DNA of 64,000 nt from Candidatus Nomurabacteria bacterium (GTDB taxonomy: Bacteria; Patescibacteriota; Minisyncoccia; Phycocordibacterales; SBAW01), in assembly GCA_943349945.1 (NCBI GenBank), contig CALQZS010000002.1, forward strand, positions 51,278 through 115,277, written 5' to 3'. Position 1 is the stretch's first letter; each line of letters opens with the position of its first letter. Below, one piece after another: positions 28,966 through 58,306 of this stretch. The notes under the pieces were generated by a model, which had not been told where the DNA came from, ran no database searches, and was given only the letters and a program-made list of their open reading frames with translations. Both the position numbers and the translations under genes were made by a program.

Positions 28966-30294
28966 ATGGAAAGAACACTCATAAGCGAGTTGGGGCAAAA
29001 GGTAGGGGAAGTAGCACTCATTAAGGGCTGGGTCAGTGTGCGCCGCGACCAAGGCAAGATGGTGTTTTTTGACTTCCGCGACCGTTCAAGCTCGGTACAA
29101 GGAGTTGTGTTACCAAACTCAGCTGCAATAGAGATCGCAAAAGAGATCCGCCAAGAATATGTCGTTAGCGTTGAGGGCAAAGTGAATCAGCGTCCCGAAA
29201 AGAATCGTAACGATAAAGTACAGAACGGAGATATTGAACTTGAGGTGTTGCAAATAACCGTACTTGCAAAAGCCGAGCCATTACCGTTTGACATGTCGCT
29301 TGAGGGGTACAACCTCGAACTTACCGCTGAACTAGATCATCGCGCACTCACCCTGCGTCACCCACGACTGCAAGCAATATTTAAAATCCAGGCAACCATC
29401 ATCGACAGCTTCCGTGAGTATATGAAATCGCAAGATTTCTTTGAGTTTCAGGCGCCGTCTATTGTACCCGCAGTAGCCGAAGGAGGAGCAGAGGTTTTCC
29501 AGGTAGACTACTTTGATAAAAAAGCGTACTTAAGTCAGTCACCGCAATTATATAAACAAATAGTGATGACAGCCTTCGAGCGTGTTTTTTCAGTCAACAA
29601 AATATTCCGTGCCGAACCTAGCGCCACCACACGCCACCTTACTGAGGTGGTCTCGCTAGATGCCGAGATGGGCTTTATTGACTCATGGCATGACGTACGC
29701 GACATGTCCGAAGCCACAGTACGACACATCCTAAACGAGCTAGGCAAGAAATGCGCTAAAGAGCTGGAACTTATGGGTGCGACCTTGCCTCAAATGATAG
29801 AGAACACCCCCACGCTTTCGTTGACCGAAGCGTTTGCTAAGTTACAAATTCCAGCAGACAAAGATCTTAACCCAGAACAAGAGAGGAAGTTGTGTGAAGT
29901 TATTAAAGAAGAGACCGGCTCAGATTTTGTATACATATACGGCTACCCAACACGCCAGAAACCATTCTATGTATACCCAAACCCGGAAGAACCAGAATTT
30001 AACGAAGGAATGGACTTGTTGTGTCGCGGCGTAGAATGGCTATCGGGTGGTCGCCGCATCAATGATTACGCGCAACTTATGGAGCATGTACAAAAATGGG
30101 AGATGGACCCTCAAAAAATAGAGATGTTCTTGGAAGCGTTCCGTTATGGAGCTCCACCTGAAGGTGGGTTTGCTTTTGGCTCCGAGCGCATGACCATGCA
30201 AATCTTGGGTCTCAAAAACATCCGTGAAGCCACCATGTTCCCCCGAGACATGAACAGAATCGACGGGTTGTTGAGTCAAGATACTGATGAGTAA
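28966..30294 (+). CDS. aspS: aspartyl-tRNA synthetase, archaeal/eukaryal-type class IIb (AsnRS not excluded)
   Basis: About 440 aa with an OB-fold N-terminus, class II motifs 1-3 (FRAE..., GSER) and no bacterial insertion domain. Confidence 0.85.
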   Translation: MERTLISELGQKVGEVALIKGWVSVRRDQGKMVFFDFRDRSSSVQGVVLPNSAAIEIAKEIRQEYVVSVEGKVNQRPEKNRNDKVQNGDIELEVLQITVLAKAEPLPFDMSLEGYNLELTAELDHRALTLRHPRLQAIFKIQATIIDSFREYMKSQDFFEFQAPSIVPAVAEGGAEVFQVDYFDKKAYLSQSPQLYKQIVMTAFERVFSVNKIFRAEPSATTRHLTEVVSLDAEMGFIDSWHDVRDMSEATVRHILNELGKKCAKELELMGATLPQMIENTPTLSLTEAFAKLQIPADKDLNPEQERKLCEVIKEETGSDFVYIYGYPTRQKPFYVYPNPEEPEFNEGMDLLCRGVEWLSGGRRINDYAQLMEHVQKWEMDPQKIEMFLEAFRYGAPPEGGFAFGSERMTMQILGLKNIREATMFPRDMNRIDGLLSQDTDE

Positions 30295-30643
30295 CTCAAT
30301 CTCTCTCACCCTCGCACGACCGTTTTTGGGAAAGATGGTTGAAGTTACGTTTGATCGACCACTAGGGAGTAAACACCCCAAGTGGGACATGGTGTACGAA
30401 GTTAATTACGGCTACATTGCAGGAGTCAAAGCGCCCGACGGGGAAGATTTAGACGCCTACTACTTGGGAGTGTCCGAGCCGCTGCAAAAGGCGACAGGCA
30501 GATGTATTGCAATTGTGCACCGCGAGGATGACGACGACGATAAACTTATTGTTGTACCCGACGGAGTGTCCATGACCGACGAAGAAATTTCTGCTGCAAT
30601 CAACTTCCAAGAAAAATGGTACAAAAGCAACATTGTTCGCTAA
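30287..30643 (+). CDS. truncated family I inorganic pyrophosphatase homolog (118 aa)
   Basis: NYGYI, DGEDLDAYYL and DDDDDKLIVVP segments align with the PPase core (NYGYI, DGDPVDVLV, EAGEDAKLVAVP). About 35 N-terminal residues and the C-terminus are missing. Confidence 0.55.
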   Translation: MSNSISLTLARPFLGKMVEVTFDRPLGSKHPKWDMVYEVNYGYIAGVKAPDGEDLDAYYLGVSEPLQKATGRCIAIVHREDDDDDKLIVVPDGVSMTDEEISAAINFQEKWYKSNIVR

Positions 30644-30686
30644 AGCCACTATTCTTACTGAACAAACCTAGATATACTAAACATAT

Positions 30687-31049
30687 ATGCAACGCTGGAT
30701 GGAACGGTTAGAAATTTTTGCGGACTTGGTTATTTTTATTCATATTATAGCTGTGATAATGCTTACCGGACTTGAAAGTTCTGGTATATGCAAAACCGAT
30801 ACGCTCCTCTTTATCTGTCCATTTGGAAATGCTATAAATATTCCAGTACAAATTTTATATAGCGTTGTACTAGTATTTTTCTTTGGCGGTTTTCTTGTAT
30901 TTCTTCCGTTGCTTATTTTCTCTATCATCCAAAAAATTCGACGACTTATAACAACTCGCTCATTTTGGATGAGTGACCTATGGCAGAAAAGCCAGTGGGT
31001 ACTCGTTGCACTTATTCTTGGAGGTGCTCTTTTGTGGATTGTTGCCTAA
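30687..31049 (+). CDS. hypothetical membrane protein (low-GC island)
   Basis: A 120-aa ORF with 3-4 TM helices in an AT-rich context. Confidence 0.55.
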   Translation: MQRWMERLEIFADLVIFIHIIAVIMLTGLESSGICKTDTLLFICPFGNAINIPVQILYSVVLVFFFGGFLVFLPLLIFSIIQKIRRLITTRSFWMSDLWQKSQWVLVALILGGALLWIVA

Positions 31050-31066
31050 TGGCAACCCATGTACAC

Positions 31067-31102
31067 AAAAAAACAATCCCAAAAAAATGGGATTGTTTTT
31101 TT
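31067..31102. terminator. bidirectional rho-independent terminator
   Basis: aacaatccca aaaaaa tgggattgtt hairpin flanked by A-runs and T-runs. Confidence 0.75.
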
Positions 31103-31139
31103 GAATCTATTTGGTACGGAACGCTACGCAACTTACTGT

Positions 31140-31370
31140 CTAGTCGGCGTATTGCGGATAAGCTCTTTTACATTCACCAAGAGTGTTGTACTCCATGCAA
31201 TCTTCTAAAACTTCTGTCGCCAAGTCCCAGCCGAGCGCTTTTTCTTCATACGTTGCTAATATACTTTCTGCATGACTAACTTTCTTTTGTAACTCAAGTT
31301 GAGTCATAAAAAAATAGCCATTGATACTAATTAGGAAAACTATGAGAAACCATTGCAAACCCTCTTTCAT
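31140..31370 (-). CDS. hypothetical small membrane protein
   Basis: A 76-aa ORF with an N-terminal TM helix in an AT-rich island. Confidence 0.5.
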   Translation of the reverse strand: MKEGLQWFLIVFLISINGYFFMTQLELQKKVSHAESILATYEEKALGWDLATEVLEDCMEYNTLGECKRAYPQYAD

Positions 31371-31474
31371 AAAGATTCAAAGCTATATGTTAATAGTGCT
31401 CAGTATACTACAACGTACACAAAAAATATCGAGTGTTTTTTGGTGATATGGTATAAAGGTAGCATACTGAGATC

Positions 31475-31636
31475 ATGAAAATACTTGCGTACATACTGCT
31501 CTTTGTAGTTTTTGTTTATCTCGCTATTGGACTCTGGTCTGCAATCCAATGGTCACGGGCCTATGATGCCGAGCGCACTTCTGCCCCAAACAATGCGGTC
31601 TCGTTTTTTATAAACGCACTCACTTGGCCTTGGTAG
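31475..31636 (+). CDS. possible small membrane protein (53 aa)
   Basis: Translates to MKILAYILLFVVFVYLAIGLWSAIQWSRAYDAERTSAPNNAVSFFINALTWPW. CATACT lies 6 nt before the ATG. It is not in the ORF track. Confidence 0.4.
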   Translation: MKILAYILLFVVFVYLAIGLWSAIQWSRAYDAERTSAPNNAVSFFINALTWPW

Positions 31637-31641
31637 AGAAA

Positions 31642-31671
31642 TAAAAAAACCGCCGAGGAGTACTCGGCGGT
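31642..31671 (-). terminator. rho-independent terminator oriented for a minus-strand transcript
   Basis: accgccgag gagta ctcggcggt hairpin. On the minus strand it is followed by TTTTTTTAT. Confidence 0.65.
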
Positions 31672-32350
31672 TAGGGGTGGCGAGGGTAGTAGGATTTCCA
31701 CCTACAACTCCGGGTCCCGAACCTGGCGTTTTGTTTTAAACTACACCCCCAAAAGAAGCTTGCTTTACCTGAAGATCGCTTCGATCATGGTTTGGAGTTT
31801 TTCGGCTAGACTCTTAAGTTTTCTTTTTAAACTTACGGGGACTACCCGCATCACCGAGTGGCTGGATACAGTCGCTGAAGCATCGTTCGCAAAGACGCTG
31901 TGCGTCTGTTTTATGATATATTCTCGTGATAAACGGGTTACTACCCCCAGAGAACAACCCATTGATGGTGTTCAGATCGGTCAGTGCTGCAATAGCTGCA
32001 GATGCCGAACGGTACAGGGATGGTGTTTTCGCAGTACTTCTCGACACCTGCAAAGGCAGTGGATTCGGTACCCCAAAGACATGCGCGAGCGGAGTCGGCT
32101 CACCTTTGGTGCAAAATCCGTCGAGACACAGAATGATCCTGCCGGATTCATCCCTCACACACAGCCGCAATCCTCTAGACTCAGTCCCGCGTGGTTCTGT
32201 CCAACAGGGCAGTATCTGCAACACCCATCGCTTTACCGTAGACCCCGCAGCAACGTGGAAATGGGTGGTTACTCCTTCACGAGGAGAGACGCGCGGCATG
32301 TTCATAACGAACCCCTTTCTTGTTCAACTAAAATCACAATACATACTAAA
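31672..32350 (-). other. GC-rich apparently non-coding island, candidate structured RNA of about 0.7 kb (identity unresolved)
   Basis: Long ORFs appear in five of six frames but with non-protein-like composition. GC3 is not elevated and rare codons are present. A minus-strand promoter-like TTGACT...TATGTA lies near 32350-32380 and a minus-strand terminator at 31642-31671. Confidence 0.4.
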
Positions 32351-32402
32351 TATATTTTAGTCAACTCTAAAAACTTGAGCTGAATAAAGCTATACTGCGC
32401 AC

Positions 32403-33827
32403 ATGAAACTAAATTTTTCCTACAAACAGCTAGAAGATGTGCCCAAGGGCTACACCCACATTACCCTCACAGAAGATCCTATTGGCACAAAAAAGTGCAT
32501 CAAAAATGGCTCGGAGACTATGCTCGAGGTAGGGGCGGGGAAGGCGGGCGAGATGACACATCGCAAGTTTGTTTTGCTATGCCGCAGCATTGTCCGCACA
32601 GCACGGGACAGTAAGGCCAAAAAAATTGCAGTGCAGTTTGACCGCACGCCCGAGCTTTTTACAAAACTACAAGACCGCACTCCTGAAGAAATTTCCTCTA
32701 CTGCTGCACAAAGCTTCGAGATGGCAAACTATGAATTTGTTACCTTCAAAACCAAACCAAAAGACGGCTGGCCCGATATAGAGGAAGTGGCACTGTGTGG
32801 CAAAAGCAGCGCCACTATTGAAGCAGCTGCAAAACGTGGCCAAATAATAGGCCAGAACATAAACACCTGCCGCGAACTGTGCAACACACCAGGGGGTGAT
32901 ATGACCCCAAAAACCCTCGCTCAGGCCGCTAAAAAGGCCATTTTGGGCACTACAGCGACGGTTAAGGTGCTGGGCGAGAAGGAGATGAAGAAGCTCGGCA
33001 TGGGGGCTATTTTGGGCATGGCACGCGGCTCGGCCGAGGAGTCGCAGTTTATTATTATGGAATACAAGGGCGGTCCGACCTCTCAAAAACCACTCGTACT
33101 GATTGGGAAGGGGGTGACCTTTGACACTGGCGGGCTCAACATCAAACCCGGCGACCACATGTACGAGATGCACATGGACATGTCTGGCGGTGCCGCGGTG
33201 ATACATGCCGTTGCCTTGGCGGCAAAACTCAAAATCAAAGCAAACGTTGTAGCATTGATACCTGCAATAGAGAATGCTCCTGCAAGCGGGGCAGTACGGC
33301 CAGGCGACATTTTAAAATCACTCTCGGGCAAAACTATAGAGGTCGTAAACACCGACGCCGAAGGCCGCGTTATTTTGGCCGACGCCATTACGTACGCAAA
33401 GCGGTACAACCCTAGTGCTGTAGTAGACGTGGCCACGCTCACAGGCGCATCGCTCGTTGCCTTGGGCACGCATGCAAGCGGGTTTATGACCAACGAGCAA
33501 AAATTGACCATCGACGACCACATGCGCTTGGCCGAAGAAAGCGGGGACTATATGTGGCCTCTGCCTATGTGGGACGAATACGAAGAGATGGTAAAAGGCG
33601 GGTTTGGCGACATCCCCAACATCCCTACAACAGGTAACTCGCGCTATGGCGGGGTTATAGCGGGCGGGATGTTTTTGTGGCAATTTGCCAAAGAGCTTGG
33701 GTGCCACTTTACCCACATAGACATGGCGCCACGTATGACCTCGACCCCGGGCGAGCACTTGGCAAAAGGTGCTGCTGGGGCACCGGTGCGTTTTCTTCTG
33801 AAATTAATAGAAAAGGGGGTAAAATAG
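32403..33827 (+). CDS. pepA: leucyl aminopeptidase (M17 family)
   Basis: NTDAEGRV and GKGVTFDTGG motifs. TATACT at 32391-32396 lies 6 nt before the ATG. Confidence 0.92.
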   Translation: MKLNFSYKQLEDVPKGYTHITLTEDPIGTKKCIKNGSETMLEVGAGKAGEMTHRKFVLLCRSIVRTARDSKAKKIAVQFDRTPELFTKLQDRTPEEISSTAAQSFEMANYEFVTFKTKPKDGWPDIEEVALCGKSSATIEAAAKRGQIIGQNINTCRELCNTPGGDMTPKTLAQAAKKAILGTTATVKVLGEKEMKKLGMGAILGMARGSAEESQFIIMEYKGGPTSQKPLVLIGKGVTFDTGGLNIKPGDHMYEMHMDMSGGAAVIHAVALAAKLKIKANVVALIPAIENAPASGAVRPGDILKSLSGKTIEVVNTDAEGRVILADAITYAKRYNPSAVVDVATLTGASLVALGTHASGFMTNEQKLTIDDHMRLAEESGDYMWPLPMWDEYEEMVKGGFGDIPNIPTTGNSRYGGVIAGGMFLWQFAKELGCHFTHIDMAPRMTSTPGEHLAKGAAGAPVRFLLKLIEKGVK

Positions 33828-58234: not shown

Positions 58235-58306
58235 GGCCCTATCGTCTAACGGTTAGGACAGCGCCCTCTCACGGCGTAAATTGGGGTTCGATTCCCCATA
58301 GGGTCA
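58235..58306 (+). tRNA. tRNA-Glu (anticodon CUC)
   Basis: Cloverleaf: acceptor GGCCCTA/TAGGGTC, D-arm GTCT-AACGGTTA-GGAC, anticodon stem GCGCC/GGCGT with loop CTCTCAC, T-arm TGGGG-TTCGATT-CCCCA, discriminator A. CCA is not encoded. Confidence 0.8.

What the first reader, a model, noticed from the sequence alone, without database searches (positions are those of the whole stretch)
31672..32400. GC-rich ~0.7-kb island with no convincing coding potential, ended by a minus-strand terminator: candidate large structured RNA or decayed foreign gene
This segment is clearly more GC-rich than the preceding AT-rich island, and it yields overlapping ORFs in five frames (207, 163, 144 aa and others) with Arg/Cys/Trp-rich, non-protein-like translations. 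The best ORF (31814-32305, minus strand) has a GC3 of about 51%, no higher than its bulk GC, and uses rare codons, which argues against translation. A minus-strand promoter-like element (TTGACT...TATGTA near 32350-32380) and a minus-strand terminator (31642-31671) delimit a ~700-nt transcript. Its 3' region folds into a tRNA-like three-way junction (GGGGUG...CACCCC enclosing the GUAGG/CCUAC and CCGGGU/ACCUGG hairpins). I could not match RNase P, tmRNA, SRP or group I/II intron core motifs by eye.
Basis: partly seen in the sequence, partly recalled or inferred. Interest (0 to 1): 0.65.

Follow-up and report, generated by a model that had tools for sequence, protein, structure and literature searches.

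The report
Orphan protein gene plus odd tRNA
The supposed 0.7-kb non-coding RNA is really a small, lineage-restricted protein-coding gene followed by an unusual proline-type tRNA gene that lacks the nearly universal "elbow" nucleotides. It is ordinary in kind, and the tRNA is a modest curiosity.

Summary
Window 31638-32364 (minus strand) is one small transcription unit in a Patescibacteria (Paceibacteria) genome. It runs promoter-like site, Shine-Dalgarno, 163-codon ORF, 63-nt spacer, 73-nt tRNA with encoded CCA, intrinsic terminator.

**The ORF is a real gene.** A syntenic orthologue (66% amino-acid identity, no indels) gives dN 0.27, dS 1.62. Differences by codon position are 39/37/84 (p = 2e-6). 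GC3 tracks each host genome. The gene has no relatives beyond this orthologue in a search of 1.84 billion cluster representatives drawn from about 15 billion proteins, and no family, structure or phage match. Its codon usage is atypical (z = -4).

**The "tRNA-like junction" is a genuine tRNA-fold gene.** It scores 46-55 bits on the Rfam tRNA model (threshold 29) but ARAGORN misses it. Three sequence variants keep the cloverleaf, with three double-compensatory pairs, and keep the anticodon CGG. All three variants have:
- no G in the D-loop;
- T-loops UGGAAAU or CGCAAAC;
- G73 and G1-C72.

It therefore fails the acceptor-end identity rules for bacterial tRNA-Pro.

**The two genes are separable.** One relative carries the tRNA without the ORF, and others carry neither.

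There is no evidence for a large structured RNA (fold z = -0.85).

The parts
32336..32364 (-). Sigma-70-like promoter TTGACT-17 nt-TATTGT, divergent from the M17 aminopeptidase gene. Inferred to drive the ORF and, in this genome, the tRNA.
   Evidence: the only promoter-like site on this strand in 30500-33000. A similar TTGAC(A/G) box sits upstream of the tRNA in L091 and of the ORF in L001 (read by eye). Function not shown.
32312..32318 (-). Shine-Dalgarno-like AAAGGGG, 6 nt upstream of the ATG at 32305
   Evidence: Read from the sequence. L001 has AAAGGG at the equivalent place.
31814..32305 (-). Protein-coding gene for an orphan 163-aa basic (pI 9.7), Cys-rich protein. Conserved residues include C49, C60, C139-x2-C142-x3-C146, H15, H17 and H131. 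Function unknown.
   Evidence: Orthologue P0002: 66% identity, no gaps. dN 0.27, dS 1.62; differences by codon position 39/37/84, chi-square p = 1.8e-6. GC3 0.51 here and 0.71 in L001, each close to the host genes' GC3. No Pfam, PHROG, NCBIfam, PADLOC, PDB, phage or plasmid match. An exhaustive HMMER search found only the orthologue.
31760..32383 (+). Antisense 'shadow' ORF (207 aa); not a gene
   Evidence: Its codon position 1 coincides with position 3 of the real gene, which is the most variable position (84 of 160 differences). This is the opposite of a coding signature.
31751..31813 (-). 63-nt spacer between the ORF stop and the tRNA 5' end. No terminator- or promoter-like site was found in it, so co-transcription is inferred.
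   Evidence: no minus-strand terminator or promoter site between 31751 and 31813.
31678..31750 (-). Non-canonical tRNA gene, anticodon CGG (loop UUCGGGA), with G73 and an encoded CCA (31678-31680). The D-loop AAAACA has no G18G19. The T-loop is UGGAAAU instead of UUCRANY. There is an A29.C41 mismatch.
   Evidence: Rfam RF00005 scores 47.1 bits against a threshold of 29. ARAGORN does not call it. Orthologues score 55.1 bits (L001) and 45.7 bits (L091/L092). The cloverleaf has 95% of cells paired and 3 double-compensatory pairs, against 41-57% in slid controls.
31638..31672 (-). Intrinsic terminator (stem AACCGCCGAG/CTCGGCGGTT, then a T-run) ending the unit. It lies tail-to-tail with the 53-aa gene.
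   Evidence: A homologous hairpin follows the tRNA in L091/L092.
31475..31636 (+). Convergent 53-aa membrane-type small gene (o53). It is the conserved neighbour of the tRNA in every tRNA-bearing locus whose contig extends that far (window, L001-L004, L091, L092, L097).
   Evidence: 64-85% identical homologues in L001, L090 and L091/L092.

Best explanation
The region holds two ordinary kinds of gene on the minus strand, probably transcribed together in this genome.

**Gene 1: the 163-codon ORF.** It is translated into a small, basic, cysteine-rich protein that exists only in this Paceibacteria lineage and one sister lineage. It is under purifying selection. Its biochemical function is unknown.

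**Gene 2: a 73-nt tRNA with anticodon CGG.** It is processed out of the transcript, and the unit ends at the intrinsic terminator. The most likely role is an accessory decoder of CCG (proline) codons. On this reading it is charged by ProRS through the conserved G35-G36 anticodon.

The tRNA has a degenerate, mitochondrial-like elbow (no G18G19, no U55C56) and a non-proline acceptor end (G73, G1-C72).

**Shown here:**
- the coding signature of the ORF;
- the cloverleaf with compensatory changes;
- conservation of the anticodon;
- separability of the two genes;
- their patchy distribution in a small variable slot between the AspRS and M17 aminopeptidase genes.

**Inferred, not shown:** co-transcription, processing, charging with proline, and use on the ribosome.
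For: **ORF**
- syntenic orthologue at 66% identity with no indels.
- dN/dS about 0.16, with third-position excess p = 1.8e-6.
- GC3 close to that of the neighbouring host genes in each genome.
- Shine-Dalgarno-like AAAGGGG.

**tRNA**
- Rfam tRNA scores of 46-55 bits against a threshold of 29.
- 95% of cells paired. Double-compensatory changes occur at pairs 27-43, 28-42 and 51-63. Slid controls give 41-57%.
- the anticodon loop UUCGG(G/A)A, the acceptor stem, G73 and CCA are retained in three variants that are only 74-85% identical overall.
- terminator.

**Codon use**
- CCG codons in this genome align with Pro in 82% of orthologue positions, so CCG means proline.
- CCG is 21% of Pro codons.

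**Separability and distribution**
- L091/L092 carry the tRNA without the ORF.
- L001 has a terminator and a response-regulator gene between the two.
- L005, L006 and L090 lack both at this locus.
Against: [quoted passage not shown] This RNA has G73 and G1-C72.
- **Position 37.** L001 has A37 instead of G37.
- **Anticodon stem.** Two of the three variants carry one mismatch there (A.C in the window, C.U in L091), and the L091 minimum-energy fold prefers a 9-nt loop.
- **Elbow.** The D-arm is so weak that RNAfold does not predict it. The elbow nucleotides present in 28 of 28 other tRNAs from related loci are absent here. Efficient use by EF-Tu and the ribosome is therefore uncertain.
- **No expression data.** Neither transcription nor translation of either gene has been observed.
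- **Few sequences.** Only two divergent ORF sequences and three tRNA variants exist, so the statistics are thin.
Confidence: 0.8

Rival explanations
1. The whole ~700 nt is one large structured non-coding RNA with a tRNA-like 3' domain.
For: - Open frames overlap in five frames.
- Codon usage is atypical.
- A tRNA fold at the 3' end and a terminator are both present.
Against: - Substitutions between orthologues are concentrated at codon position 3, 39/37/84, p = 1.8e-6.
- There are no indels across 480 nt at 67% nucleotide identity.
- No Rfam hit is found outside the tRNA.
- The fold z-score is -0.85.
- The tRNA occurs without the upstream 0.5 kb in L091/L092, and a terminator separates the two in L001.
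Confidence: 0.03
2. The ORF is a decaying foreign pseudogene, and the tRNA is a dead relic such as an integration-site fragment.
For: - Codon usage z = -4.0 and Cys at 4.3% against 0.6%.
- Orphan status.
- Patchy presence in a variable slot.
- The tRNA has non-canonical loops and stem mismatches, and ARAGORN does not call it.
Against: - dN/dS is about 0.16, and the frame is intact in both lineages and in the strain variants.
- GC3 sits close to each host's, which implies long residence under selection.
- The tRNA shows three double-compensatory pairs with its anticodon, acceptor stem and CCA conserved. In L091 a promoter-like box (TTGACA, read by eye) lies upstream of it and a terminator hairpin follows it.
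- No phage, plasmid or viral-contig match exists for either gene.
Confidence: 0.07
3. The tRNA is functional but not a normal elongator. It might be an elbow-less, G73 tRNA(CGG) kept away from EF-Tu and the ribosome. In that case it could serve as an aminoacyl donor for a non-ribosomal transferase, or as a regulatory or decoy RNA. The adjacent basic Cys-rich protein would be its possible partner.
For: - Loss of G18G19 is a feature of the S. aureus non-proteinogenic tRNA-Gly species used for peptidoglycan bridges (PMC4052509).
- G73 and G1-C72 violate the tRNA-Pro acceptor rules.
- The elbow loops vary freely while the anticodon and acceptor end are conserved.
- The ORF and tRNA are adjacent on one strand in the window. 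In L001 the flank immediately after the ORF appears, by eye, to retain a remnant of the tRNA 3' trailer and terminator (36-nt repeat). That would suggest the two were once adjacent there as well.
- The protein has pI 9.7.
Against: - No aminoacyl-tRNA transferase or other partner was identified.
- The ORF is absent from L091/L092, which keep the tRNA, so the protein is not required for it.
- The T-stem has ordinary G-C-rich pairs.
- The strictly conserved CGG anticodon is most simply explained by decoding and ProRS recognition.
- Nothing here tests EF-Tu binding.
Confidence: 0.1

Closest known systems
Bacterial elongator tRNA-Pro(CGG), e.g. E. coli proK
   Same: - 7/4/5/5-bp cloverleaf with a 7-nt anticodon loop carrying U33 and anticodon CGG.
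- G37 in two of the three variants.
- U8, A14 and A58 present, and an encoded 3' CCA.
- CCG codons mean proline in this genome.
   Different: - G73 instead of the strictly conserved A73.
- G1-C72 instead of C1-G72.
- A15-U48 instead of G15-C48.
- No G18G19, and G55 with G56 or C56 instead of U55C56.
- A37 in L001.
- One anticodon-stem mismatch in two variants.

Staphylococcus aureus non-proteinogenic tRNA-Gly isoacceptors (NP1, NP2, NEW)
   Same: These are bacterial accessory isoacceptors that lack G18G19, with UU or CU instead, and deviate from the canonical elbow (PMC4052509; PMC12256121).
   Different: - They are defined by weak EF-Tu T-stem pairs (A49-U65, A51-U63) and by use by FemXAB. 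Here the T-stem is G49-C65, U50-A64, A/G51-U/C63, and no Fem-type partner is known.
- They sit in rRNA-tRNA operons, whereas this gene is solitary or follows a protein gene.
- The amino acid and anticodon differ.
Metazoan mitochondrial tRNAs and tRNA-Pyl (tRNAs without the G18G19/T54-psi55-C56 elbow contacts)
   Same: An A/U-rich D-loop without G18G19, a T-loop without the T-psi-C consensus, and a weak A-U-rich D-stem. This comparison is from my own knowledge, with PMC2777451 and PMC6337575 seen only as abstracts.
   Different: Arm and loop sizes here are standard. The organism is a free bacterial genome whose other tRNAs are canonical (28 of 28), and the anticodon is not CUA.
Taxonomically restricted (orphan) bacterial genes; mRNA-tRNA co-transcripts such as the E. 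coli thrU-tyrU-glyT-thrT-tufB operon (own knowledge)
   Same: A short gene with no detectable family and atypical codon usage, yet under purifying selection. A tRNA shares a promoter and terminator with a protein gene.
   Different: The gene order here is protein then tRNA. Co-transcription is inferred only from the absence of intervening signals.

Membership tests
tRNA (Rfam RF00005) | Covariance-model score at or above the curated gathering threshold (29 bits) | tested here: met
   47.1 bits in the window, 55.1 bits in L001 and 45.7 bits in L091/L092.
tRNA (Rfam RF00005) | Cloverleaf maintained by compensatory substitutions among homologues | tested here: met
   95.2% of cells paired, 3 pairs changed on both sides, slid controls 41-57%. 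Only 3 distinct sequences were available. The single unpaired D-stem cell is an alignment artefact.
tRNA (canonical elbow) | G18G19 in the D-loop, U54-U55-C56 (T-psi-C) in the T-loop | tested here: not met
   The D-loops are AAAACA, ACACAUAA and AAUAAA, with no G. The T-loops are UGGAAAU and CGCAAAC. 28 of 28 other tRNAs from related loci have both motifs. U54...A58 is kept in the window and L091.
tRNA (functional) | Mature, CCA-ended, aminoacylated RNA in the cell | not testable with these tools
   CCA is encoded (31678-31680). No expression or charging data are available.
Bacterial tRNA-Pro | Anticodon NGG (G35, G36) | tested here: met
   The loop is UUCGGGA or UUCGGAA in all three variants.
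Bacterial tRNA-Pro | Discriminator A73 (strictly conserved in Bacteria and Archaea), C1-G72 in P-type systems, and G15-C48 | tested here: not met
   All variants have G73 and G1-C72. Position 15-48 is A15-U48 in the window and L091. The rule is taken from PMC9976931.
Bacterial tRNA-Pro | G37 (m1G37 site) | tested here: inconclusive
   G37 in the window and L091, A37 in L001.
Non-proteinogenic (cell-wall type) tRNA | Loss of G18G19 plus weak EF-Tu T-stem pairs; a co-existing canonical isoacceptor; a dedicated aminoacyl-tRNA transferase | tested here: inconclusive
   G18G19 loss is met. The T-stem pairs are not the A49-U65/A51-U63 type.
Protein-coding gene | Frame preserved between diverged orthologues, dN/dS below 1, third-position excess of substitutions, translation start signals | tested here: met
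   for the coding signature. The Shine-Dalgarno-like AAAGGGG sits 6 nt from the ATG.
Any described protein family or fold | Significant profile or structure match | tested here: not met
   Pfam's best hit is E = 0.06 to DUF6894, below its cut-off. PHROGs, NCBIfam, PADLOC and PDB give nothing. The AlphaFold model has pLDDT 41.6 and is unusable.
Large structured ncRNA (RNase P, tmRNA, group I/II intron, other Rfam families) | Covariance-model match, or folding energy and covariation beyond chance | tested here: not met
   No Rfam match at E up to 10 other than the tRNA and weak chance hits. ARAGORN finds no tmRNA. Fold z = -0.85.

The most novel reading that the evidence does not exclude
The CGG tRNA may be a dedicated, non-canonical tRNA species rather than a run-down tRNA-Pro. 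On this reading it would be an elbow-less tRNA with G73. It would either be charged by an unexpected route, or be diverted from EF-Tu to a non-ribosomal use such as an aminoacyl donor or a regulatory or decoy RNA.

The neighbouring orphan protein is basic and carries a Cys cluster, and it might be the tRNA's binding or processing partner in the lineages that have both. That would be a new accessory tRNA system in ultra-small Patescibacteria.
Probability: 0.1. Interest if true: 0.7.

Novelty: new variant of a known kind. Interest (0 to 1): 0.3.

Why it matters
- **For annotation.** Atypical codon usage and overlapping shadow ORFs do not rule out coding. Here a single diverged orthologue was enough to show purifying selection. 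The case also shows that a standard tRNA finder (ARAGORN) misses a tRNA conserved across three sequence variants in an under-studied phylum, which would distort tRNA inventories and codon-capacity inferences for such genomes.
- **For biology.** A bacterial tRNA keeps its anticodon and acceptor stem while lacking the universal D-loop/T-loop contacts and carrying the wrong discriminator for its anticodon. That makes it a natural test case for two questions: how much of the elbow and the acceptor identity set is really needed by ProRS, EF-Tu, RNase P and the ribosome in reduced bacteria, and whether non-translational tRNAs exist there.
- **For the orphan protein.** It adds a selected, lineage-specific gene of unknown function to a small variable slot between two housekeeping genes.

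Tried and rejected
**Searches that found nothing**
- Rfam at E up to 10 on 30500-33500, and at gathering threshold on the whole window. Only the tRNA is credible.
- ARAGORN for tRNA and tmRNA. It does not see this gene.
- ORF163 against Pfam, PHROGs, NCBIfam, PADLOC and PDB sequences.
- ORF163 against phage and plasmid records by tblastn, against viral contigs, and against GTDB species genomes.
- The tRNA against phage records by blastn.
- An nhmmer profile of the tRNA against 97 loci plus the window. It found no further copies.

**Searches that gave only noise or unrelated hits**
- Exhaustive HMMER over 1.84 billion representatives gave the orthologue plus one repeat-protein artefact, P0003.
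- IUPAC pattern scans for the odd tRNA in metagenome and viral collections gave no hits or chance matches that are not tRNAs.
- Following the neighbouring mini-pyrophosphatase to find more tRNA loci failed. That gene is widespread in unrelated contexts.

**Structure prediction**
- AlphaFold2 on the two-sequence alignment gave pLDDT 41.6. No fold search was run because it would be meaningless.

**Ideas rejected**
- Codon reassignment of CCG. Those codons align with Pro.
- The tRNA as a codon supplement for its neighbour gene. ORF163 has 5 CCG among 13 Pro codons against a 21% background, p = 0.12.
- A GC-rich island. The segment is at the window-average GC.
- Phage origin. No matches were found.

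Full report
**1. What the sequence shows**

The flagged segment has a GC content of 0.48-0.55. The whole window averages 0.509, and the best ORF is 0.522. The segment is therefore not a GC-rich island. It only looks rich next to the AT-rich stretch at 30600-31650, which is 0.34-0.40.

The consensus scan finds a strong minus-strand terminator with its stem at 31672-31648 and then a T-run. It finds one minus-strand promoter-like site, TTGACT-17-TATTGT, at 32364-32336. The promoter count in the scanned region is not above chance.

**2. The 3' "tRNA-like junction" is a tRNA gene**

Rfam's tRNA model matches 31681-31750(-) at 47.1 bits against a gathering threshold of 29. ARAGORN does not report it.

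Read from the alignment, the RNA is GGGGGUG-UA-GUUU-AAAACA-AAAC-G-CCAGG-UUCGGGA-CCCGG-AGUU-GUAGG-UGGAAAU-CCUAC-UACCCUC-G-CCA. The anticodon is CGG, with U33 and G37. The discriminator is G73, the first pair is G1-C72, and CCA is encoded.

The closing helix was mis-registered, because it paired the 5' end with the CCA plus trailer. The D-arm was missed.

**3. The 163-codon ORF is a real gene**

A search of 5.8 billion protein clusters returned the identical protein, which occurs on many contigs including an NCBI MAG. It also returned one diverged homologue, P0002, of 160 aa and 66% identity. The two align without a single gap.

P0002 lies in a syntenic locus, L001, divergent from the same M17 aminopeptidase/ScpA/ScpB genes. 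The evidence for coding is:
- A codon-wise comparison gives dN 0.27 and dS 1.62, so dN/dS is about 0.16.
- Differences by codon position are 39/37/84, chi-square p = 1.8e-6.
- Nucleotide identity is only 67%, yet there are no indels over 480 nt.
- GC3 is 0.51 here and 0.71 in L001, in each case close to the neighbouring host genes. GC2 stays near 0.5 in both.
- A Shine-Dalgarno-like AAAGGGG sits 6 nt before the ATG.

The 207-aa plus-strand ORF is a shadow. Its first codon position is the gene's most variable third position.

ORF163 is the least typical of the 47 long ORFs scored in the window, z = -4.0 against the other 46, and has 4.3% Cys against 0.6%. But that does not argue against translation here.

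The ORF region folds no better than shuffled sequence, z = -0.85, and matches no Rfam family.

**4. The protein is an orphan**

- Pfam gives only sub-threshold noise to DUF6894, E = 0.06 and 0.26.
- PHROGs, NCBIfam, PADLOC and PDB sequences give nothing.
- An exhaustive HMMER scan of 1.84 billion cluster representatives finds only the orthologue, plus one repeat-protein artefact.
- There is no match in phage or plasmid records, viral contigs, or GTDB species genomes.
- AlphaFold2 on two sequences is unusable, pLDDT 41.6.

The protein is basic, pI 9.4-9.7. It keeps C49, C60, C139-x2-C142-x3-C146, H15, H17 and H131. A metal site or nucleic-acid binding is a guess, not a result.

**5. Genomic context**

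The M17 gene's relatives place the organism in Patescibacteria/Paceibacteria. The MAGs are labelled Nomurabacteria, Kaiserbacteria and similar. The arrangement at this locus varies between relatives:
- In the two closest species representatives, L005 and L006 (M17 79% and 78% identical), AspRS directly abuts M17. Neither ORF163 nor the odd tRNA is present.
- L001 (M17 67% identical) has AspRS, o66, o53, tRNA, response regulator, ORF160, M17.
- The conserved 53-aa neighbour o53 led to two further arrangements.
  - L091/L092 run AspRS, mini-PPase, o53, terminator, tRNA, M17. There is no ORF163, and a TTGACA promoter-like box (read by eye from the sequence) lies upstream of the tRNA.
  - L090 has a methyltransferase gene in the slot and no tRNA.
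- A near-identical strain, L097, lacks the AT-rich 0.8 kb between the mini-PPase and o53.

The AspRS|M17 gap is therefore a small variable slot, and the tRNA and ORF163 are separable genes. In L001 the sequence after ORF160 appears, by eye, to retain a remnant of the tRNA trailer and terminator. A 36-nt direct repeat brackets the response-regulator gene and tRNA. This suggests the ORF and tRNA were once adjacent there as well.

**6. The tRNA family**

Three distinct variants exist (window, L001, L091), 74-85% identical to one another.
- On the cloverleaf, 95.2% of cells pair. Pairs 27-43, 28-42 and 51-63 change on both sides, and 2-71 and 7-66 change on one side. Slid controls give 41-57%.
- The anticodon loop UUCGG(G/A)A, the acceptor stem, G73 and CCA are constant.
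- The elbow is both non-canonical and variable. The D-loops AAAACA, ACACAUAA and AAUAAA contain no G. The T-loops are UGGAAAU and CGCAAAC.
- By contrast, 28 of 28 ARAGORN-called tRNAs in the related loci, and the window's own tRNA-Glu, have G18G19 and GTTCRA.
- The window and L091 each have one anticodon-stem mismatch. The A-U-rich D-stem is not predicted thermodynamically.
- Pattern scans of metagenome and viral collections and blastn against phages gave no further members.

**7. How it most likely works**

CCG codons make up 21% of proline codons in the window. They align with Pro in 82% of orthologue positions, which is at least as good as the other three Pro codons. So CCG means proline and there is no recoding.

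A conserved CGG anticodon is what ProRS reads (G35, G36) and what decoding needs. The simplest model is therefore an accessory CCG decoder. It is dispensable, which fits its patchy distribution, and it has a relaxed elbow.

Against simple membership in tRNA-Pro:
[quoted passage not shown] This RNA has G73, G1-C72 and A15-U48.
- L001 has A37.

I therefore file it as a tRNA-fold gene with a proline anticodon that probably works like tRNA-Pro(CGG). I do not file it as a verified member.

A minority reading is a non-translational tRNA. Loss of G18G19 is also a feature of the S. aureus non-proteinogenic tRNA-Gly species (PMC4052509; PMC12256121). But their defining weak T-stem pairs and Fem partners are not seen here, and the neighbouring protein is not always present.

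In this genome no terminator or promoter lies in the 63-nt spacer. The ORF and tRNA are therefore inferred to share the 32364 promoter and the 31672 terminator, with the tRNA cut out by the usual processing enzymes. That inference is untested.

**8. Verdict**

What is there is an orphan protein gene under purifying selection, plus an unusual accessory tRNA(CGG) that a standard tRNA finder misses. It is ordinary in kind. The tRNA is a modest but genuine curiosity and worth a targeted follow-up.

Noticed in passing
window 30650-31470: An AT-rich (0.34-0.40 GC) ~0.8-kb segment carries a 120-aa multi-pass membrane ORF (30687-31049, +), a perfect 16-bp hairpin (31066-31103) and a 76-aa ORF (31140-31370, -). 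It is absent from a near-identical strain contig, L097, where ORF163, tRNA, o53 and the mini-PPase are contiguous. It looks like a very recent insertion. Both ORFs have no family hits.
   Followed up: partly
window 28966-30294; L005 3575-4966; L006 3647-4990; L091 1194-2582: AspRS is a domain-level mosaic among close relatives. The first ~100 residues (anticodon-binding domain) appear, by eye, highly similar in all of them. The window (442 aa) and L006 (447 aa) have what looks, by eye, like an archaeal/eukaryal-type catalytic core (FRAE..TTRHL). L005 (463 aa) has a bacterial-type core ([21 protein letters not shown]). L091's 462-aa gene was not inspected. This suggests recombination inside the gene.
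   Followed up: no
L001 5237-5272 and 6033-6068: A 36-nt direct repeat (89% identical) brackets a response-regulator gene plus the tRNA. The repeat is made of the terminator 3' half and the 3' end of o53. It suggests a duplication or insertion that split an originally adjacent ORF-tRNA pair.
   Followed up: partly
window 30287-30643 (+): A 118-aa 'mini' inorganic pyrophosphatase overlaps the AspRS stop codon. It scores only 26 bits on Pfam PF00719, covering about half of the profile. It has more than 870 homologues of about 118 aa across Patescibacteria in many genomic contexts. It seems to be a conserved truncated PPase form in this phylum.
   Followed up: partly
L090 694-1278: In another relative, a class-I SAM methyltransferase gene occupies the slot between o53 and M17, in place of the tRNA and ORF163. 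The AspRS|M17 gap behaves as a small cargo hotspot with at least four different contents.
   Followed up: partly
window 58235-58306 (+): The only other tRNA in the window, tRNA-Glu(CUC), is fully canonical but does not encode CCA, whereas the odd tRNA(CGG) does.
   Followed up: no
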